Below are positions 20,292-33,000 of a stretch of 64,000 nucleotides of DNA, one piece after another. This stretch comes from a virus. Both the position numbers and the translations under genes were made by a program. A model generated the notes under the pieces. It was not told the DNA's origin. It did no database searches and saw only the letters and a list, made by a program, of their open reading frames with translations. Location of the stretch: UHGV virus genome UHGV-0213393; one strand, given 5' to 3'. Each line of letters starts with the position of its first letter. Position 1 is the stretch's first letter.

Positions 20292-21989
20292 GTGAACAAG
20301 AACATTGAGCCAGCTCGTAAGCGCGAGCGCGAGATTATGAATCGGGCGGCAAGCGTCATGGCTATGACCGTCGATCCAACCACTGATGCTGCCGGTAACA
20401 TGATTACCGACAACGAAGTGATGATGGCTAACCTGGAAAAAGCTATCCAGAAAGAGCCTATGTTTGAAGGCGTTGGACCAGAAGCAGCTCGCCAGATCAT
20501 TGGTAGCTGGGCCATGTCTATTCATGAATACAAACGCCAGCATGGGCATTATCCGGCAAGCGATGTATTAGCCAACGCCCATGTAGCACTTGAGCGCCTG
20601 ATGATGGAGTCCGCTAAAGAGACGCATGAAGGCGCTGGCAAAGCCATGTTTGAATCAGTAGCCAAGGACATGCGCACCTCCGATGGTGTAATGAAGGTTG
20701 CACAATATGCCGCACTGATCCTGCCTGCTTCTCTCGGCGCAGCCACCAGCGACGCATGTACGTTTATCCCTTGTGATCGTGATGAAACCAATATTTACGA
20801 GCTGACCAACGTTGCTGGTACAAAATTCGGTACATTCGAGCAGGGCGATGAGCTGAACATGCAATCTGCGGGCGTGTATTCGCAGATGAAACGCCTGTAC
20901 ATCCTGACCGAAAAAGGCGATGGCAGCAAAACCACCTTCCAGTTTGATATCCAGAACTTCGAAGGCCAGGCCTGCCCGCTGCGCCAGGGCTACAACAAAC
21001 TGCTGATTAACCGCAAACCGTCCAAAGTAGATGATGGTGACGGCAACCTGTATTTCAACGACAAAGACGTCAACGGCAACTCTTTCTCTGCTACAGCAAA
21101 AGTTAAATACGATACCGGCGTTATCGATATCACCTTTACTGAAGCACCAGCAGAAGGCACAGAAATCGCTGTTCAGGTTGAAATCAACATTGAACGCAAT
21201 CCTAGCCTGATCCCAGTCATTAACCAGTCCATGCGCAATTACGCCCTGCGCCCGTCGCAGTACGTGATCGCATCCGAACATACGGTTATGACAGCATCTG
21301 ACCTGAGCCGTGAACACGGACTCGAACTGGCAGCATTGCAATTCTCCGCAATGCGCAACTGGATTTCCCACGAAATCGATATGATGCGCCTGCGCACCCT
21401 GGTATTCCATACCGTTTACGGTCGTGAATTTGACGTGGCACTGCCGGAAGCGCAGAACTACGAATCGTGGGTTGGTTTAATTCGCCATGTAGTGAACGCG
21501 CTGTCACAGGATATGGCTGACCGCACCCTGACTACCGGTATCCGTGGTGGCTTTGCTGGTGGCGATGCTGCTAACTTCCTGCGTTCCTTACCGCCGCAGC
21601 ACTTCCAGTTGGCACCTGGCTATGTACAGTCGCCATACATTCAATACATCGGCACCCTGTTTGGTTCCATTCGTATCTACGAAGTGCCGAAGCCTATCTG
21701 CAAACAATTCCAGGAACATGGCTACGACTTTGGCCTGGACGACATCTACTTCTATGGTCGTGGCGAAGGCATTGGTAAAGCTGGCCTGGTCGCTGGTGAT
21801 GCTGTGCCTGCTATTCCGTACGTCCACGAAACAAATCCAGCCCTGGTAAACCGCACCACTCTTTGGGGTACAGCAATCAACGATGTGCATCCGCGCAACG
21901 GTGAGAACTATTTCACTCGCCTTCGTCTGACACGTTCGAAAGAAGGTGCGATTGACATGTTGAGCGGGCAAATCAACGAAAAAAAGTAG
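20292..21989 (+). CDS. large virion structural protein (major capsid protein candidate)
   Basis: 565 aa, first gene of the structural operon; ends ...NEKK with an A_AAA_AAG heptamer at the stop; no signature motif. Confidence 0.4.
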   Translation: MNKNIEPARKREREIMNRAASVMAMTVDPTTDAAGNMITDNEVMMANLEKAIQKEPMFEGVGPEAARQIIGSWAMSIHEYKRQHGHYPASDVLANAHVALERLMMESAKETHEGAGKAMFESVAKDMRTSDGVMKVAQYAALILPASLGAATSDACTFIPCDRDETNIYELTNVAGTKFGTFEQGDELNMQSAGVYSQMKRLYILTEKGDGSKTTFQFDIQNFEGQACPLRQGYNKLLINRKPSKVDDGDGNLYFNDKDVNGNSFSATAKVKYDTGVIDITFTEAPAEGTEIAVQVEINIERNPSLIPVINQSMRNYALRPSQYVIASEHTVMTASDLSREHGLELAALQFSAMRNWISHEIDMMRLRTLVFHTVYGREFDVALPEAQNYESWVGLIRHVVNALSQDMADRTLTTGIRGGFAGGDAANFLRSLPPQHFQLAPGYVQSPYIQYIGTLFGSIRIYEVPKPICKQFQEHGYDFGLDDIYFYGRGEGIGKAGLVAGDAVPAIPYVHETNPALVNRTTLWGTAINDVHPRNGENYFTRLRLTRSKEGAIDMLSGQINEKK

Positions 21990-22130
21990 CAGTGGCGAAC
22001 GTGTCAGTTTCACCAACATCAATTGAAGTAAACGAAGGTGAAACTATCGCCGCGAGCACTTCAAAGACACGAAAAACACCCAAAAAGAAGTAAGACCAGC
22101 CCCTGAATAAGGGGCTATATGGAGGAAAAA

Positions 22131-22409
22131 ATGGCTGATATTCAGGTAACTATTACACCTTCCGATGCGACAGATAAATCTTTCACTATCGAGTCAGATC
22201 ATCCGGAAATTGTGAGCGTAGATGGCAAAACCTGTACCGCACTTAAAGCAGGTCAGGCAGTGCTCACTATCAAAACCACCGATGGCAATAAAACGGCAAC
22301 ATGCACCGTAACGGTTAATGAAGCCCCAAAGAGCGTCAGCGCCGTCAGCGTTGAACCGTCAACCAAAGAAGTGACGGTAGGTGACAGCTTCACGGTCGGC
22401 GAAGCCTGA
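22131..22409 (+). CDS. Ig-like (Big_2-type) domain protein, partial domain
   Basis: ITPSDATDKSFTIESDHPEIVSVDGKTCTALKAGQAVLTIKTTDGNKTATCTVTV fits the C-terminal two-thirds of a Big_2 domain; same frame as the upstream 565-aa gene. Confidence 0.55.
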   Translation: MADIQVTITPSDATDKSFTIESDHPEIVSVDGKTCTALKAGQAVLTIKTTDGNKTATCTVTVNEAPKSVSAVSVEPSTKEVTVGDSFTVGEA

Positions 22410-22474
22410 TAAAAGTCTCCCCATGCAAATGGGGAGGCTTCTCTAATCCGCTCGATAAAGAGGAAAAGAGCAGC

Positions 22475-24130
22475 ATGAATAAAATTGGTTTTTCTGTTGG
22501 TCAGGCGGCGGGCGTTGCGGTAGCGGACGTAAATGCCGATGCTACCCTGTCCAACACATCTGGCGGTGCTTCCGTCTTTGCCGGGTTGGTTATTTCCCGC
22601 AGAGGAGCACCAGGCAAGGTTTTGCAGGTTACAGCAGCCAACTATCAGAGCGTGTTAGGTTCACCTCTTCACCCGCGCACCGGGGCCGCATTTGAACCAT
22701 ATCGCCACGTTGAACGCGCAGTAAAAGGCGGCACCGGTTATGTGGTTCGCGTATGCGCAAAAGACATGAAAGTACCGGGCATTGCCGTTTCTGTTCAGGC
22801 CAGGTCGAAAAGCACCAAGTCTGCAAAAACTCTGCAAATTGCTCCGACCGAAGCAACGGTAAATATCGGCGATACACTGACCGTTCGTGCCGTTTCTGGA
22901 GTCACTTCTCCGGTAACTTTCGCTGCAAGCGAAACACCTGAAATTTCCGGCAGTGAACTGGCTATTTTCTACATAAAGGACGGTGATGCTTCGACAAACC
23001 GCACGTTATCACTGACCCGTGAGGACGAAGAAAATGACCTGTTCACTCTGGAACTGAAAGAGACACAGACCGATGGTTCTGTAGAAACGCTGGAAAGCTA
23101 CCAGGTTTCTTTCGATCCGGATGCAACGAACGATATGGGCCAGCCAGCATGGATTCCTGCGTTGTTAGAAAGTCAGTCCACCAGGCTTGGAGCTGTACTG
23201 GCTGATGGTGCCGAAGACTCCGCTCACTTGCTGACTTTCGAAGATGTAGCGTTTGAAGGCGGTACAGATGGCGATCTGTCCTCAATTGACACTGATGATT
23301 ATCTGAAAGCGTTAGAGGTTCTCGAAGCGTCAGAAGTTAATTATACCGCGCTGCTTTCTATGGGCTGCTACGACGCATCCGTGCTGGCAAAAATTAATTC
23401 GCTGGCAGAAGACGTTCGCGTGGATATGTTCTACGACCTGAAATGTGCTCAGACTGGTGATAACGCTATCGCGGAAGCTAAATCACATGGTTTCGGCAAA
23501 TCCCACCAGGCTGCACGTTATCACTTCCCGTACTCATGCCGTGACACTTTCAGCGGTATGAATGTGGTTTACGGAATCAGTTGCGACGCATTTGTGGCAA
23601 AAGCTAAAGGCGTTGCGCTTGTGTCTGATGTAGGCGGCTGGCATTACGCCCCGGCTGGTCTGTCTCGCGCAATCATTGATCGCCAGAACATCACCAGACT
23701 CTCCGGGATTGGCACAATCGATCGTGAAGCGTATGTGACCGCTCGTATTAACCCTGTAAGCGTTGCAGCGGATGGTTCTGTCTACATCGACGACTCCCTG
23801 ACGACATACAGCAAAAATAACTATCTGCGATTCCAGCACGTTTCATCACTGATGAATGCAATTGCCCGCAATTTCTATGAAGTTGCTCAGGCAATCAAGC
23901 ATGAACCTGATGGCGTAACGCAGGAAAGTCTGACTAACGCACTGACAGATCTTCTGGACCGTTTTTATGCGGCTGGTGCGCTGGTTACACCACGCGATGA
24001 ATCTCAAGGTTCTGCCCCTTATGTGGTCAAGGTAACTCAAAAAGACATCGACTTGTGGGAAGTGGAATGGTCCGTGTGTCCAACAGGCACTGCTCGTCGA
24101 ATCCTCGGCAAACCAATCCTGATGCGTTGA
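22475..24130 (+). CDS. putative tail sheath protein
   Basis: 551 aa between capsid candidate and tube candidate, upstream of a myovirus baseplate cluster; no signature motif. Confidence 0.5.
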   Translation: MNKIGFSVGQAAGVAVADVNADATLSNTSGGASVFAGLVISRRGAPGKVLQVTAANYQSVLGSPLHPRTGAAFEPYRHVERAVKGGTGYVVRVCAKDMKVPGIAVSVQARSKSTKSAKTLQIAPTEATVNIGDTLTVRAVSGVTSPVTFAASETPEISGSELAIFYIKDGDASTNRTLSLTREDEENDLFTLELKETQTDGSVETLESYQVSFDPDATNDMGQPAWIPALLESQSTRLGAVLADGAEDSAHLLTFEDVAFEGGTDGDLSSIDTDDYLKALEVLEASEVNYTALLSMGCYDASVLAKINSLAEDVRVDMFYDLKCAQTGDNAIAEAKSHGFGKSHQAARYHFPYSCRDTFSGMNVVYGISCDAFVAKAKGVALVSDVGGWHYAPAGLSRAIIDRQNITRLSGIGTIDREAYVTARINPVSVAADGSVYIDDSLTTYSKNNYLRFQHVSSLMNAIARNFYEVAQAIKHEPDGVTQESLTNALTDLLDRFYAAGALVTPRDESQGSAPYVVKVTQKDIDLWEVEWSVCPTGTARRILGKPILMR

Positions 24131-24173: not shown

Positions 24174-24914
24174 ATGAAAAACTATTCTGTTGTTGATCCA
24201 TTCATGCGCGCGCTATTTGCAGGCAAAACAGCCGGTAACGCAGATACAGCCATACTGGAAAGCGCCAAAGATTCTGGTTGTTTTGAAAGTGGCGATAACG
24301 CCATCCTGGAAAGTGCCAAGAATGGAACCGATGGCGCGGATATCGAAGCCGCAATGATGGAAGCGGTGGAATCCCGTGCACAAAGTGACATCCGCAGTCT
24401 GGCAGCTTCAATGCTGGCGAGCTGGGTAGAAGATGGCGACCCTGAAGCGGATTCATTTGATGCGCTGGCAATCACAATGGCTGGCCTGGCCGACATTGAC
24501 GAAGACACGGAACTGACCGACGAACAGGTTGACGCATATAACGACGCACTCGCGGCGTTGGCTAACGCGGCTGTGGCCCTGGGCGCTGATCAGGACGACG
24601 TCACCGAGATGATCGATGACGAAGATGACGCGGCAGCAGAACGCGTATTTGACGCACTGTCAGAAAGCGATAGTGAAATGATGGAAGAAGCCATTGCGAT
24701 TTACACCGTTGCTGGTGGCAATGCCGCAATGCTCGAAGCTGTCAGCAAAAAAGTCGTTCGTGATGGCAAGGTTACTATCATCCGCAAACGCCCGCGTCGC
24801 ATGACGTCCTTACAAAAGCAGGCGCTGAAAAAAGCTCGCCGTAAGGCACATACGTCGATAGCTAACACTCGCCGCCGTAAGTCTATCCGCATTCGCAAAA
24901 AACGCGGTCTGTAA
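24174..24914 (+). CDS. acidic protein with strongly basic C-terminal tail
   Basis: Asp/Glu/Ala-rich body, C-terminal RKRPRR...RRRKSIRIRKKRGL. Confidence 0.45.
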   Translation: MKNYSVVDPFMRALFAGKTAGNADTAILESAKDSGCFESGDNAILESAKNGTDGADIEAAMMEAVESRAQSDIRSLAASMLASWVEDGDPEADSFDALAITMAGLADIDEDTELTDEQVDAYNDALAALANAAVALGADQDDVTEMIDDEDDAAAERVFDALSESDSEMMEEAIAIYTVAGGNAAMLEAVSKKVVRDGKVTIIRKRPRRMTSLQKQALKKARRKAHTSIANTRRRKSIRIRKKRGL

Positions 24915-30077: not shown

Positions 30078-33000
30078 GTGGCGGGCACTCCATATGGAAA
30101 AAGCACTGGAAGAGAAATACAAAGCCCACGCCAAAAAAACAGGGTGATCACCGCCGATGTAAGTGAGGTTATTTTGAACGATAAAAAAGACCGAATAGCG
30201 ATAATCGACGCAATACAAACGGCAAACGCGAAAGAGCTAGCTGCGCTTTCAGAAATAAAAAAAGCACTTGAGTCTTACGGACGCAATCCTGATACCAGCG
30301 ACGCACCACAAGGACGCGTAAGTCGTCGCCTGGCCCGAACAGGGAAAGCAGGGGCGCAACGCAACAGTTTCACACAGGGGCCGTATAAAGACCGGCTCCC
30401 TACCAGGAAACAGAGATTACGTATAAACAACACTAGCGAGATAGATAATCCGCAAAAAGCAGCAGCAGATCACCGCACCGCTCATTCGGAATCAAAAACA
30501 GCACCACTGGCTGAAGGCAAAGCCACGAAGTCATCGCCAGAGCGCATTCAGTTGCTCACTCCTGACATTCAGCCTGCAAGGCAAGAACAACCAGTTAGAG
30601 AAAGCCAGAGCACCTCTGGTGCACCGTTACGGGATAGCAACGGACGATTTGCCTCTCAGAAAAAAAACGAGGATCTCGCACGCCAGAATGAGCTACGCGC
30701 ACAGGCAAAACTACAGGTTGGGTTCCTGCGAAAACTCGGTTCCATTATGGGGGTTGATGGTTCAGGGAAAGCCGACGATGGAGCTGTAACCGATGCTGCC
30801 GGGGTAGGGGCTGGTGGTCCACTATGGATGGCAGCACGGGGCGTATTTGATATCAGCCGCGAGATTACTGGTAAGGCTAAATCATTGAAAGAATGGATAG
30901 ATAATGGCAACGATAAAGCGGCTGGCGCACCGGTGGTCGCAAAAGCCCCCGCCATTACTTACCCGGCACCTGACAATGAAAGGAAGACTCCAGATAACGC
31001 GCCCGGTTCAGCAAAGGCATTTACTGAAGCCGTTAAAGAAAAATCTGTACGTGCGATCGAAGAACAAACGAAAGTTCTTCAACGCAACGACAGCCAGATA
31101 ATTGATGAGCTGGAAACTGTATCCGAAGAGATCCGGAAACTACGAAAGTCGCAGGAGAGTGGGCTAAAACTGAGCGACCTCCTCGGCGGTGGCAGATTAC
31201 GTTCCAAAATATCCCCTACACGCGGTCGTAGCAGTGCACGTGGTGGCAACACGGGCCGCACTGGAGACAGTAAAGAAAACAAGGGCAAGAAGGGAAAAAA
31301 CACCAGCAAACCTACTGAGACGGGCAGGAGTCAGGAAGGCAAAGAGGGGAAAAAAAATCAGCCAGGCAAAAACAACAGTGCGGGCGAGGAAAAAAATCGG
31401 ACAAAAAATGCTGGTGGGAACGAGGGTAGTACCTCACCAAAATCATCGGGTGATAAATCTTCAGTTAAAACCAGAGCAGGTAAGGTCACTGAAGAAAGCG
31501 TAGCCAAAACGGCGGCTGGTGGAGCGGCAGGGAAAGACGCTGGTAAAGCGGCAACTTCCGCTGGGGAAAGCCTTACCAGGAAAGAGGCGGGTAAGGTTGC
31601 CGTTGCCACTGGTGAAAACATCGCGAAAAAAGAAGCTGGAAAAGTGGCTCTCAAAGCTGCCGGAGGTGTTGCCGCAAGGGCCGGATTCAGGGCGATTCCA
31701 GTCATCGGCCAGGTGGCTATGGTTGGTTATGATGCCGTAGACGGCTACAGCGACACAGAAGCGCAGAGGGCGACTTATAACCTGAAGGAAGGGCAGGACG
31801 TTACAACACAGCAAAAGAGCGCCTACGCCGCTGCTAACGTCCTGGATATGGGCGGTCTGGTGACGGGAGCGGCTAACCTCATTGGCGAGGGGATGTCCGC
31901 GCTAGGCTTTGAAGGTGTCGGACAAAAACTTCAGAGTCTTGATACCAGCAATATCGCTCGCGGCATAAATAGTTCTATCGACGCGTCGAAGAACGCATTC
32001 AGCAGCCTAAAAGAATCGTTCTCATCAAGCAGCGAAGGCACTGCGCAGGTTAAGAAAGCCGTTGAAGATGGCACCAAGCAAACGGTAGCCGCAATTAATG
32101 ATCTGGCCCGACAGCTACAGGGCGGGCGCAGAGGTGAGGATGGCGTGGGTGAACACGGCTACAAATCGCCAGACGAATTTAAAGCGCCTGAAAAAAATAC
32201 AATAACGACTGATCTGAATATAGGCGGAAGCAACGCCAAGAACAGGAATTACCGGAATAACAACCTGGGGAACCTGGTTTTTGCAAATCAGGAGGGGGCG
32301 GTACTGGAAGCGCCGAACGCGAAAGGCGAACAGCGTTTTGCGCGGTTTAATACGCCCGAAGAAGGGATTCGGGCATTGGCAAACCAGGTATCGAGTTATT
32401 ACAACGGTACAAGTGCTGCCGCTGGGTATCAGAAGCTGCAAACAGTATCCAGCATCATTTCAAAATGGGCACCACCAACAGAGAACAACACCAATCAGTA
32501 CATTGAAAACGTCAGCAAATATCTAGGGGTATCCCCCAACGATAAAATAGACGTTAGCAACCCTGAAGTTATGACGCACCTTGTTCGCGCTATTGCGACG
32601 AAGGAGGGGGGTAACCCGGCGGTTAACAACAATTTCATCAAAACAGCTCTTGGTTCATTCAACGCTAAAACTGGGCGTTGGGAAGGGCAATTCAATGATG
32701 AAACGCTGGAACACATTAATAAAATCCAGAAGGAAAAGGGCGGTCCTCTAATCGCTCGCAACTCCCAATATAGTGTCGGTAGCAAAGTCAAATACGCCAA
32801 CGGCTCATCTTCTGCTATTCCTGCGTCAAGCGTAGCCCAGGCTGTAATGCCTAGCCCTACTGACGTGGTTCAACACGCACAGGCAGCTAAAAAACCGAAG
32901 GCAGCTCAACAGGAAAATGCCCAAGCGATCAGCCACGCGAAAGCTAGTGGCAATTCTTCCGCCGCAGCCGGATTGACGGAGCGGTTAATGAGTGCAGACG

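What the first reader, a model, noticed from the sequence alone, without database searches (positions are those of the whole stretch)
21978..22131. dnaX-type A_AAA_AAG slippery heptamer at the capsid-candidate stop, leading into a split Ig-like domain
The 565-aa gene ends ...GAA AAA AAG TAG, so an A_AAA_AAG heptamer is in the correct phase for -1 frameshifting, as confirmed by the track translation ending EKK. The -1 frame continues for about 35 codons (VAVANVSVSPTSIEVNEGETIAAS...), which looks like the first strands of a Big_2 Ig-like domain. The next ORF (22131-22409) encodes the rest of a Big_2 domain and is in the same frame as the capsid-candidate gene. Ig-like domains added to phage structural proteins by programmed frameshifting are established; here the domain appears spread over two frames, suggesting either a recoding event or recent decay.
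Basis: partly seen in the sequence, partly recalled or inferred. Interest (0 to 1): 0.55.

Follow-up and report, generated by a model that had tools for sequence, protein, structure and literature searches.

The report
Frameshift-anchored split Ig domain on phage capsid
A D6/P1-like phage-plasmid most likely uses a ribosomal frameshift to add the first fifth of an Ig-like domain to some capsid subunits, while a separate small gene encodes the rest, so the domain may be assembled from two proteins on the virion.

Summary
The P1-gp23-type capsid gene (20292-21989) ends GAA AAA AAG TAG, with A_AAA_AAG in phase. The -1 frame stays open for 35 codons, and the next gene (22131-22409) is a Big_2 domain that lacks its first strands.

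It is not decay. The heptamer and the extension are kept in nine sequence contexts, at 69-100% capsid identity. In one lineage the extension frame has no start codon. In two lineages the same peptide is fused in frame to the capsid.

The split is a conserved design.
- The extension carries strands b1-b2-b3a.
- The 92-aa protein carries b3-b8 plus a second b1-b3a piece at its C-terminus. That piece is under purifying selection (pN/pS 0.10-0.24).
- Relatives with a complete in-frame Big_2 on the capsid have no such gene.
- Sheath proteins of the split lineages carry a third b1-b3a-like insertion.

Best reading: -1 frameshifting makes a minority of capsid subunits carry a donor tag. That tag docks the incomplete Ig protein by strand complementation, and chains may form. 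The frameshift is well supported by comparison. The complementation is inferred. No second recoding event links the two ORFs.

The parts
20292..21989 (+). Major capsid protein gene (P1 gp23 family), 565 aa, 0-frame product ending ...GQINEKK*
   Evidence: phrog_1014 E 1.4e-215. 88% identical to the D6 major capsid protein. Matches P1 Gp23 of PDB 9UKM at E 2.6e-166.
21980..21986 (+). Slippery heptamer A_AAA_AAG in X_XXY_YYZ phase, directly followed by the 0-frame stop TAG (21987-21989)
   Evidence: Invariant in nine sequence contexts although the preceding codon varies (GAA, GCA, GGA, always ending in A) and the following 0-frame codon varies (TAG, TGA, TAA, TCC, TCG).
21986..22093 (+). -1 frame extension of 35 codons plus stop. 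VAVANVSVSPTSIEVNEGETIAAS corresponds to Big_2 strands b1, b2 and b3a (the 'donor'); it is followed by the Lys-rich tail TSKTRKTPKKK.
   Evidence: In this frame pN/pS is 0.32-0.43 for the window against D6, L002 and L021 (0.55-0.74 between the D6-type and L021 lineages), lower than the other two frames in every comparison between lineages. No start codon in this frame in L026, and only a late one in L218. The homologous peptide is fused in frame to the capsid in L024 and L221. Strands were mapped on the AF2 model of P0060.
21992..22053 (+). Predicted RNA stem-loop starting 5 nt 3' of the heptamer. Outer stem 21992-21998 pairs with 22047-22053; inner stem 22007-22014 pairs with 22037-22044. Candidate frameshift stimulator.
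   Evidence: -22.8 kcal/mol, z -2.97. Kept in the D6, L021 and L219 types, but the outer stem is invariant, so there is no covariation. Synonymous divergence of the extension (pS 0.2-0.33) lies in the lowest 2-5% of equal-sized capsid windows.
22097..22117 (+). GC-rich hairpin CAGCCCCTgaataAGGGGCTA between the extension stop and the ORF2 ribosome-binding site. There is no T-run on the + strand.
   Evidence: An equivalent hairpin follows the capsid gene in P1 and in most relatives shown; L216 has none between the extension stop and ORF2a.
22131..22409 (+). ORF2, 92 aa. Residues 1-66 are an incomplete Big_2 core (b3-b8, the 'acceptor'). Residues 67-90 (22329-22400), KSVSAVSVEPSTKEVTVGDSFTVG, are a second b1-b2-b3a 'donor'. 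RBS GGAGG at 22121-22125.
   Evidence: Big_2 profile positions 22-79, 29.9 bits. phrog_215 'structural protein with Ig domain'. pN/pS is 0.10-0.15 for the core and 0.10-0.24 for the C-terminal piece. In the AF2 model the core has pLDDT 64-82 and residues 66-92 are below 50, with no fold-back in cis.
22417..22436 (+). Second GC-rich hairpin, between ORF2 and the sheath gene
22475..24130 (+). Tail sheath gene (551 aa). It carries a clade-specific insertion (about aa 108-160, nt 22796-22954). Inside it, KSAKTLQIAPTEATVNIGDTLTVR (aa 115-138, nt 22817-22888) resembles the same b1-b3a donor motif.
   Evidence: phrog_1036 E 2.7e-190. The insertion is present in all ORF2-bearing lineages and absent from P1, L029 and L217. 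The donor HMM hits this site at about 15 bits in D6, L021 and L216 but only 3.8 bits in the window.

Best explanation
The window is a D6-like (P1-related) phage-plasmid.

Step 1, frameshift. While ribosomes translate the major capsid gene, a fraction slip back one base on A_AAA_AAG (21980-21986). The single E. coli tRNA-Lys re-pairs from AAA-AAG to AAA-AAA. These ribosomes miss the TAG and add 35 residues. The product is a capsid subunit with a C-terminal tag made of Big_2 strands b1, b2 and b3a, followed by a Lys-rich tail.

Step 2, the partner. The next gene makes a 92-aa protein that is a Big_2 domain lacking exactly those strands. At its own C-terminus it carries a second copy of them.

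Step 3, proposed assembly. The capsid tag completes the Ig fold of one ORF2 molecule in trans (strand complementation), which anchors ORF2 to the head. The C-terminal donor of that ORF2 can complete the next ORF2. This would rebuild a 'nicked' tandem Big_2 string. A similar donor-like insertion in the sheath may dock the same protein on the tail. The frameshift frequency would set how many capsid subunits carry an anchor.

Status of each step:
- Shown by sequence comparison: the site, its phase, its conservation, coding selection on both half-domains, and the either/or distribution of 'complete fused Ig' versus 'half Ig plus ORF2'.
- Inferred: that the shift is ribosomal rather than transcriptional, its efficiency, and the whole complementation and chain step.

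My estimates: about 0.8 that an extended capsid protein is made by slippage at this site, and about 0.45 that ORF2 is anchored by strand complementation. The confidence given for this entry (0.55) is for the explanation as a whole.
For: Frameshift:
- The heptamer is invariant and in phase in nine contexts: the window, D6, L002, L021, L219, L218, L220, L026 and L216 (69-100% capsid identity). The flanking codons change.
- The extension frame has no ATG, GTG or TTG in L026. In L218 the only one is 16 codons in.
- L024 and L221 fuse the homologous peptide in frame to the capsid.
- pN/pS is 0.32-0.43 in the -1 frame for the window against the other lineages and is higher in the other two frames.
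- Synonymous divergence is depressed in the extension.
- A stem-loop is predicted 5 nt downstream (z -2.97). L216 has a different strong stem-loop 6 nt downstream (z -3.65).
- A_AAA_AAG is the most shift-prone heptamer tested in E. coli, and phages add Ig-like domains to capsid proteins by frameshifting (review PMC5009743).

Split domain:
- Extension plus ORF2 gives a full-length Big_2 match; ORF2 alone matches only profile positions 22-79.
- The AF2 model of a relative with a complete fused Ig (P0060, pLDDT 88) places the split after b3a.
- Capsids with a complete in-frame Big_2 (L217, L222) have no ORF2 and a short sheath. Every capsid with a half-domain has ORF2.
- The ORF2 C-terminal half-domain is under purifying selection as strong as the core. 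AF2 does not fold it back in cis.
- ORF2 alone models worse (core pLDDT 64-82) than the complete domain (88-98).
- L216 has a second acceptor gene without a donor, which could cap a chain.
- ORF2 aligns to one period of tandem Big_2 arrays in a shifted register.
- The sheath insertion carries the donor motif.
Against: - There is no experimental evidence. No proteomics for D6-like virions was found, and the D6 genome paper could not be read.
- The downstream RNA structure shows no covariation and is weak or absent in L218 and L220.
- There is no Rfam frameshift element.
- The run of seven A could also give the same protein through transcriptional slippage.
- In the window, D6, L021, L219 and L216 a GTG or ATG lies 1-2 codons into the extension, so an independent small peptide cannot be excluded in those lineages.
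- The MSA for the ORF2 model had only 14 sequences, so the disordered C-terminus is weak evidence.
- Donor and acceptor overlap by a few residues (b3a is present in both), which a simple complementation model does not require.
- The sheath motif is weak in the window itself (3.8 bits).
- All ORF2-bearing lineages form one clade, so the co-occurrences may reflect a single ancestral event.
- Extension and C-terminal donors show no within-genome co-variation.
Confidence: 0.55

Rival explanations
1. The same extended capsid protein is made by transcriptional slippage. RNA polymerase adds one extra A in the A7 run (21979-21985), and the ribosome then reads the altered mRNA normally.
For: The site is a run of seven A followed by G. 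An mRNA with one extra A encodes exactly the same ...EKKVAVANV... product. Downstream RNA stimulators are not conserved in all lineages. The review PMC5009743 treats both mechanisms as used in bacteria and phages.
Against: From my own knowledge, seven A is short for efficient slippage by E. coli RNA polymerase, while A_AAA_AAG is among the best ribosomal shift sites there. The zero-frame phase X_XXY_YYZ is kept in all nine contexts, and polymerase slippage does not need that phase. A stem-loop lies at the canonical 5-6 nt spacing in several lineages. The two mechanisms are not exclusive.
Confidence: 0.12
2. There is no recoding. The 'extension' is an independent small gene (D6 orf50, a 34-aa peptide) translated by termination-reinitiation at the ATG or GTG next to the capsid stop. 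The free peptide, not a capsid fusion, is what interacts with ORF2, if anything does.
For: D6 is annotated this way, with the ATG overlapping the TGA. The window has GTG at 21992, 2 nt after TAG. L021, L219 and L216 also have GTG at extension codon 3.
Against: L026 has no start codon at all in that frame, and L218 has one only 16 codons in. There is no Shine-Dalgarno sequence upstream of these starts. L024 and L221 carry the homologous peptide as an in-frame part of the capsid protein, and P0060-type capsids carry the whole domain in frame. The heptamer would have no reason to be conserved.
Confidence: 0.06
3. The frameshift is real, but the half-domains are not a complementation system. The extension and the ORF2 C-terminus are flexible linkers or tags with another role, such as binding the capsid surface or host glycans. 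ORF2 would be a self-sufficient truncated Ig protein, and the split would be a frozen accident of a cassette inserted out of register from a tandem Big_2 array.
For: ORF2 equals one repeat period of tandem Big_2 arrays in a shifted register, as expected from out-of-register recombination. Donor and acceptor overlap at b3a. Extension and C-terminal donors show no within-genome co-variation. AF2 still builds a sandwich-like core for ORF2 alone.
Against: The same truncation point is kept in donors on two proteins, and probably three, across lineages down to 46% ORF2 identity, with pN/pS 0.10-0.24. Complete fused Ig and ORF2 are mutually exclusive among relatives. From general knowledge of Ig folds, a core missing three strands would expose hydrophobic surface. 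The ORF2 core also models with lower confidence than the complete domain.
Confidence: 0.25
4. This is recent decay or a sequencing error: a once-contiguous Ig extension broken by indels, or a miscounted homopolymer.
For: The domain is spread over two frames, and there are homopolymer runs nearby.
Against: The identical architecture is found in D6 (77% nucleotide identity), in nine sequence contexts and in dozens of independent assemblies. Both pieces are under purifying selection. ORF2 has its own RBS and start codon in every lineage.
Confidence: 0.01
5. A second recoding event (stop-codon readthrough, +1 shift or ribosome hop over the hairpin) joins the extension to ORF2 and makes a contiguous capsid-Ig fusion.
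For: A hairpin and an SD-like GGAGG lie between the extension stop and ORF2. The Lys take-off codon (AAG 22088-90) and AAA at 22128-30 could be read by the same tRNA. This superficially recalls T4 gene 60.
Against: The frame relation between the extension and ORF2 differs among lineages. The last sense codons differ (AAG, GAG, TCC, GAT, CCT...) and have no matching landing codon. The gap length varies from 22 to about 70 nt. A joined product would duplicate b3a and insert a Lys-rich loop inside the fold.
Confidence: 0.02

Closest known systems
Ig-like domains added to phage capsid or tail proteins by programmed frameshifting (phage T3 coat protein, Lactobacillus phage A2, Listeria phages A118 and A500; reviewed in PMC5009743)
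   Same: A -1 shift near the 3' end of a major structural gene gives a minority product with a C-terminal Ig-like (here Big_2) sequence on the virion surface. In different relatives the same payload is in frame or out of frame, as the review describes. Here L024, L221 and P0060 are in frame and the window and D6 are shifted.
   Different: Here the shifted extension carries only about 22 residues (strands b1-b3a) of the roughly 80-residue domain. The remainder is a separate gene with its own RBS. That gene ends in another b1-b3a piece, and the sheath has a third. No such split is described in the papers I could search.
E. coli dnaX tau/gamma -1 frameshift
   Same: The slippery heptamer A_AAA_AAG is identical and is read by the single tRNA-Lys. 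A stem-loop is predicted 5 nt downstream (dnaX has one at about 6 nt).
   Different: I saw no conserved upstream Shine-Dalgarno stimulator. There is no Rfam match to any frameshift element. The stem-loop is not conserved in all lineages and has no covariation. In dnaX the shift truncates the product; here it bypasses the stop and extends the product.
Donor-strand complementation and exchange in chaperone-usher pili (Fim, Pap, Caf1) and type V pili
   Same: This is the proposed logic only. Subunits have an incomplete Ig-like fold that is completed by strands donated from the neighbouring subunit. This gives non-covalent head-to-tail polymers with an anchor, and in L216 a possible donor-less cap.
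   Different: There is no homology, chaperone or usher. The donor here is C-terminal and has three short strands (b1-b3a), not a single N-terminal strand replacing strand G. The assembly is on a virion. Nothing has been shown experimentally.
Engineered split Ig-like domains (SpyTag/SpyCatcher from the CnaB2 domain of FbaB)
   Same: A short peptide tag fused to one protein completes a truncated Ig-like domain on another protein.
   Different: That system is engineered and locks with an isopeptide bond. No such chemistry is expected in Big_2. Here the split would be natural and non-covalent.
Ig-domain capsid decoration proteins (T4 Hoc, T5 pb10, N4 gp17)
   Same: Small Ig-like proteins displayed on HK97-fold capsids and encoded near structural genes.
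   Different: Those proteins bind through a dedicated capsid-binding domain to the assembled lattice. Here the anchor would be a piece of the Ig fold itself, carried by the capsid protein.

Membership tests
Programmed -1 ribosomal frameshift site (tandem-slippage type) | X_XXY_YYZ heptamer in the zero-frame phase | tested here: met
   A_AAA_AAG at 21980-21986, with codons GA[A AAA AAG]. The phase is kept in nine contexts.
Programmed -1 ribosomal frameshift site (tandem-slippage type) | A -1 frame ORF downstream that is conserved as coding and not independently initiated | tested here: met
   pN/pS is lower in the -1 frame (0.32-0.74) than in the other two frames in every comparison between lineages. 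There is no start codon in L026 and only a late one in L218. The peptide is fused in frame in L024 and L221.
Programmed -1 ribosomal frameshift site (tandem-slippage type) | A 3' stimulatory RNA structure at 5-9 nt, supported by covariation | tested here: inconclusive
   A stem-loop starts 5 nt downstream, z -2.97. It is invariant, so there is no covariation. L216 has a different strong stem (z -3.65), while L218 and L220 have weak ones. Synonymous sites in the extension are depressed.
Programmed -1 ribosomal frameshift site (tandem-slippage type) | The trans-frame protein product is detected | not testable with these tools
   No proteomic data for D6-like virions were found. The D6 paper is not held.
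dnaX frameshifting element (Rfam family) | Match to the curated covariance model (upstream SD, heptamer and stem-loop) | tested here: not met
   cmscan of 21900-22500 at E<=10 returned only two sub-threshold, unrelated hits at the intergenic hairpins.
Phage structural proteins with a frameshift-appended Ig-like domain | The frameshift extension encodes a complete Ig-like domain | tested here: not met
   The extension covers only Big_2 strands b1-b3a plus a Lys-rich tail. It has no Pfam hit on its own. Strands were mapped on the P0060 model.
Pfam Big_2 (PF02368) | ORF2 scores above the gathering threshold | tested here: met
   29.9 bits against a cutoff of 22.8, but only profile positions 22-79 of 79 are matched. 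Foldseek hits to Big_2 structures 7QUZ and 2L04.
P1 gp23-type major capsid protein (HK97/T4-like fold) | Homology to an experimentally established capsid protein | tested here: met
   P1 Gp23 in the cryo-EM head structure 9UKM, E 2.6e-166 over residues 5-560. The model of relative P0060 matches 9ukm_A at E 1.5e-55.
Donor-strand complementation assemblies (pilus-like) | A subunit with an Ig-like fold missing strand(s), and a matching donor segment on a partner | tested here: met
   By sequence only. ORF2 lacks b1-b3a. Donors with those strands are on the capsid extension and on the ORF2 C-terminus.
Donor-strand complementation assemblies (pilus-like) | Physical complementation in trans demonstrated or modelled | not testable with these tools
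No multimer prediction was available. The ORF2 monomer model leaves the C-terminal donor unstructured.
Donor-strand complementation assemblies (pilus-like) | Periplasmic chaperone and usher | tested here: not met
   Neighbouring genes are phage head and tail genes. No chaperone-usher-like gene lies at the locus. This is an analogy, not membership.

The most novel reading that the evidence does not exclude
D6-like phages may carry a natural split-Ig 'tag and catcher' system. A ~22-residue b1-b2-b3a donor is displayed on a frameshift-limited subset of capsid subunits, on the tail sheath, and on the C-terminus of the 92-aa acceptor itself. One tiny gene would then polymerise by donor-strand complementation into non-covalent Big_2 strings that decorate both head and tail. 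This is a pilus-like assembly principle not previously described for virions, with frameshift efficiency setting anchor density. L216's donor-less paralog would act as a chain cap.
Probability: 0.3. Interest if true: 0.85.

Novelty: new variant of a known kind. Interest (0 to 1): 0.68.

Why it matters
Frameshift-appended Ig domains on phage structural proteins are textbook, but they are whole domains. Here a frameshift appends only a fragment of a fold, and a second gene supplies the rest. Relatives show all the intermediate states: no tail, a disordered tail, a complete in-frame Ig, an in-frame half Ig plus ORF2, and a frameshifted half Ig plus ORF2.

If the halves reassemble, this would matter in three ways.
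- It would be a natural example of gene fission inside a beta-sandwich that is maintained by selection.
- It would be a new way to attach decoration proteins to capsids, and possibly to sheaths.
- It would be a ready-made, genetically compact, non-covalent tag/catcher pair for phage display on P1/D6-type vectors.

There is also a practical point for annotation. In the D6 reference record the extension is a separate 'hypothetical protein', and the E. coli and E. marmotae plasmid records I checked annotate no frameshift there.

Tried and rejected
- **Fused construct.** I tried AlphaFold on an extension-linker-ORF2 fusion to test complementation.
- **Representative search.** Searching ORF2 against 1.84 billion proteins to find other split systems gave output swamped by giant tandem Big_2 proteins. 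It only shows that ORF2 equals one repeat period in a shifted register.
- **Within-genome co-variation.** Extension versus C-terminal donor gave no signal (p 0.83), and extension versus sheath gave none (p 0.24). C-terminal donor versus sheath was weakly higher within genomes (p 0.012, not corrected for phylogeny). An earlier run had the sheath register wrong and is discarded.
- **Covariation in the stem-loop.** None was found because the stem is invariant.
- **Rfam.** No frameshift element matched.
- **Hop or readthrough joining the extension to ORF2.** Rejected because frames, gap lengths and last codons differ among lineages.
- **Upstream SD-like stimulator.** None is conserved, by inspection.
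- **Heptamer enrichment in the window.** None: 24 observed against 20.9 expected.
- **D6 genome paper (PMC5800970).** Not held, so I cannot say whether its authors discussed the site. The GenBank record annotates orf50 separately.
- **Big_2-CBM56 oligomer.** A literature search for its structure (7QUZ), as a possible precedent for Big_2 strand swapping, found nothing usable.
Full report
**1. The observation**

- ORF 20292..21989 (565 aa) ends AAC GAA AAA AAG TAG, so A_AAA_AAG (21980-21986) is in X_XXY_YYZ phase.
- From G21986 the -1 frame reads VAVANVSVSPTSIEVNEGETIAASTSKTRKTPKKK, with stop at 22091-22093.
- ORF2 starts at ATG 22131, behind GGAGG at 22121-22125, and lies in the capsid's frame.
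- Pfam finds Big_2 in ORF2 only from profile position 22 to 79 (29.9 bits).
- Joining extension residues 1-24 to ORF2 gives a full-length match, profile 1-79, E 2.7e-9.
- The heptamer alone is not unusual: it occurs 24 times in the window against 20.9 expected.

**2. What the genes are**

- The 565-aa protein is the major capsid protein of the P1 gp23 family. It hits phrog_1014, is 88% identical to the D6 major capsid protein, and matches P1 Gp23 of the cryo-EM head structure 9UKM at E 2.6e-166.
- The 551-aa gene downstream is the tail sheath (phrog_1036).
- The window is 98-99.8% identical over this region to ~90-kb E. coli and E. marmotae plasmids. These are D6-like phage-plasmids.

**3. Not decay and not an error**

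D6 is 77% identical in nucleotides and has the same layout: GAA AAA AAG TGA, a -1 extension VMVANVSVSPTSLDVDEGETIAANTSKAQKKTKQK (annotated as orf50), a hairpin, an RBS, and a 92-aa Ig ORF.

I collected relatives from IMG/VR, GTDB genomes, metagenomes and the protein collection. Among capsids 69-100% identical to the window's, nine sequence contexts keep A_AAA_AAG in phase.
- The codon before the heptamer varies (GAA, GCA, GGA) but always ends in A.
- The 0-frame codon after it varies (TAG, TGA, TAA, TCC, TCG).
- In L026, L218 and L220 the heptamer sits two codons before the stop, and the capsid tail there is unrelated in sequence.

In L026 the -1 frame has no ATG, GTG or TTG at all. In L218 the only such codon is 16 codons in. 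In those lineages the extension can be reached only by a frame change.

In L024/L025 and L221 the homologous peptide is fused in frame to the capsid with no heptamer...TVVEGVTLSPASITVSAGDEITAGNTKKDS*. This shows that the peptide belongs to the capsid protein.

Between the window, D6 and L021, pN/pS of the extension in the -1 frame is 0.32-0.55. It is lower than in the other two frames in each of these comparisons.

**4. Possible stimulators**

- A stem-loop is predicted 5 nt after the heptamer: 21992-21998 pairs with 22047-22053, with an inner helix. It folds at -22.8 kcal/mol with z -2.97.
- The D6, L021 and L219 types keep it, but the outer stem never varies, so covariation is absent.
- L216 has a different, strong stem-loop 6 nt downstream (z -3.65). 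L218 and L220 have nothing convincing.
- Synonymous divergence in the extension (pS 0.2-0.33) lies in the lowest 2-5% of equal-sized windows of the capsid gene, whose mean is 0.55-0.70. This fits an overlapping RNA constraint.
- No Rfam frameshift element matches, and I saw no conserved upstream SD-like element.
- According to the review PMC5009743, A_AAA_AAG is far more shift-prone in E. coli than related heptamers because of the single tRNA-Lys. Frameshift-derived Ig-like extensions of phage coat proteins are also established there.
- Transcriptional slippage on the A7 run would give the same protein and cannot be excluded from sequence.

**5. The split is a conserved design**

ORF2 has the same shape in every lineage, down to 46-47% identity. 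It starts at M-[AP]-[DNQ]-I-[QK]-V..P..A-T-[DN]-K and ends, after the last Ig strand and a 4-6-residue linker, in a second V-x-[GA]-V-S-V...G-[DE]-x-[FI]-[TS]-V piece.
- The C-terminal piece is under purifying selection as strong as the core: pN/pS 0.10-0.24 against 0.10-0.15.
- AlphaFold2 of ORF2 alone (14-sequence MSA) gives a moderately confident sandwich core (pLDDT 64-82) and leaves residues 66-92 unstructured. They do not fold back in cis.
- The model's best PDB matches are Big_2 domains, including the lambda gpV C-terminal domain.

**6. The unsplit version exists in relatives**

Capsid homologs at 47-51% identity (P0060, P0061, P0071, P0072, P0082; 652-674 aa) carry a complete Big_2 in frame at the C-terminus. 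Their loci (L217, L222) have no ORF2, and the sheath gene follows directly.

AlphaFold2 of P0060 (78-sequence MSA, mean pLDDT 88) gives a P1-like capsid body. Foldseek matches it to 9ukm_A at E 1.5e-55. A lower-confidence linker leads to a high-confidence Ig domain with these strands:

| Strand | P0060 residues |
|---|---|
| b1 | 576-580 |
| b2 | 583-587 |
| b3a | 591-593 |
| b3b | 595-599 |
| b4 | 608-612 |
| b5 | 618-620 |
| b6 | 625-628 |
| b7 | 632-640 |
| b8 | 646-654 |

By alignment, the window's extension carries b1, b2 and b3a, and ORF2 begins at the b3a position. The two halves overlap by a few residues.

Other relatives have only low-complexity C-terminal tails or none, and no ORF2. 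These are P1, JK004, L029, and the Pantoea, Enterobacter, Citrobacter and Xenorhabdus loci.

So among relatives, 'complete Ig on the capsid' and 'half Ig on the capsid plus ORF2' are alternatives.

**7. A third donor-like segment**

Sheath proteins of all ORF2-bearing lineages are 550-589 aa and have an insertion at one site. It is absent from P1, L029 and L217, whose sheaths are 525-532 aa.

The insertion contains a motif like the donors:
- L220: VPVTSVTATPDSLEVAVGDEIQVI
- L216: AVEGVSLSDTAIDLAVGESLTFE
- window: KSAKTLQIAPTEATVNIGDTLTVR

An HMM built from 16 capsid and ORF2 donors hits this site at about 15 bits in D6, L021 and L216, but only at 3.8 bits in the window. This is suggestive. All these lineages form one clade, so the co-occurrence may be a single event.

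L216 has two acceptor genes, and one of them (68 aa) has no C-terminal donor.

**8. Interpretation**

The best-supported reading has two parts.
- A fraction of capsid subunits acquire, by -1 slippage at A_AAA_AAG, a C-terminal b1-b3a tag. I put this at about 0.8, whether the slippage is ribosomal or transcriptional.
- This tag completes the incomplete Ig fold of ORF2 in trans, and ORF2's own C-terminal donor can complete another ORF2. That would rebuild a nicked tandem Big_2 string, the geometry seen in the contiguous arrays to which ORF2 aligns across a domain boundary. I put this at about 0.45. It is inference only.

Rivals are listed in the Rival explanations section with their evidence. 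A hop or readthrough joining the two ORFs is rejected because the frame relations, gaps and last codons are not conserved.

**9. Comparison with what is known, and novelty**

The recoding part is a new member of a known kind. The D6 reference record annotates the extension as a separate 'hypothetical protein', and the plasmid records I checked annotate no frameshift there. I could not read the D6 genome paper.

The split of the Ig fold between a recoded capsid extension and a separate gene has no counterpart in the literature I could search, nor do the extra donor copies. I classify it as a new variant of a known kind. If complementation and polymerisation are shown, it would amount to a pilus-like donor-strand principle on a virion.

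Noticed in passing
L089 5695-5920 (Rosenbergiella metrosideri JB07 contig; capsid 58% identical to the window's): This capsid gene ends GCG GGA AAG TGA. That is the lambda G/GT-type heptamer G_GGA_AAG in phase, right at the stop. An 11-bp perfect hairpin starts 4 nt downstream. The -1 frame stays open for about 72 codons and encodes an Ala/Lys/Asp-rich sequence. This looks like a second, independent candidate -1 frameshift at the C-terminus of a P1-gp23-family capsid gene, with a different payload.
   Followed up: partly
window 22796-22954 (sheath aa ~108-160; donor-like motif 22817-22888): The tail sheath has a clade-specific insertion resembling Big_2 strands b1-b4. It is present in all ORF2-bearing lineages and absent from P1, L029 and L217. 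It scores about 15 bits against a donor HMM in D6, L021 and L216 but only 3.8 bits in the window.
   Followed up: partly
L216 4330-4868: This lineage has two Ig acceptor genes after the capsid. One is a 68-aa protein with strands b3-b8 only. It lies 19 nt after the extension stop, in the same frame, with no hairpin between. The other is a 91-aa protein with b3-b8 plus a C-terminal donor.
   Followed up: partly
L017 5696-5818 and L113 (D6-type loci): The Lys-rich tail of the extension varies through a one-base difference in an internal A-run (cagaaaaaaac versus cagaaaaaac). The alternative ends are KKQSRSKAKTRP* and KKPKHK*. The tail seems loosely constrained and is itself prone to homopolymer changes. 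L026 and L216 lack it entirely.
   Followed up: no
window 22097-22117 and 22417-22436: Two GC-rich hairpins flank ORF2. P1 has one such hairpin between genes 23 and 22. The scan scores them as terminators only on the minus strand, because the + strand has no T-run. Their role is unknown; it could be mRNA stability, partial termination, or setting the capsid:ORF2:sheath expression ratio.
   Followed up: no
L220 461-1546: An IS605 OrfB/TnpB-like gene (Cas12f1-like_TNB) lies about 1 kb upstream of the capsid gene in this D6-like metagenomic contig.
   Followed up: no
window 24747-24753 and 24828-24834; 30183-30189 and 30258-30264: These are paired AAAAAAG heptamers on the + strand inside other late genes. 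The first pair lies in the Lys/Arg-rich C-terminus of the gp21-like ORF 24174-24914. I did not check their phase or any alternative-frame ORFs.
   Followed up: no
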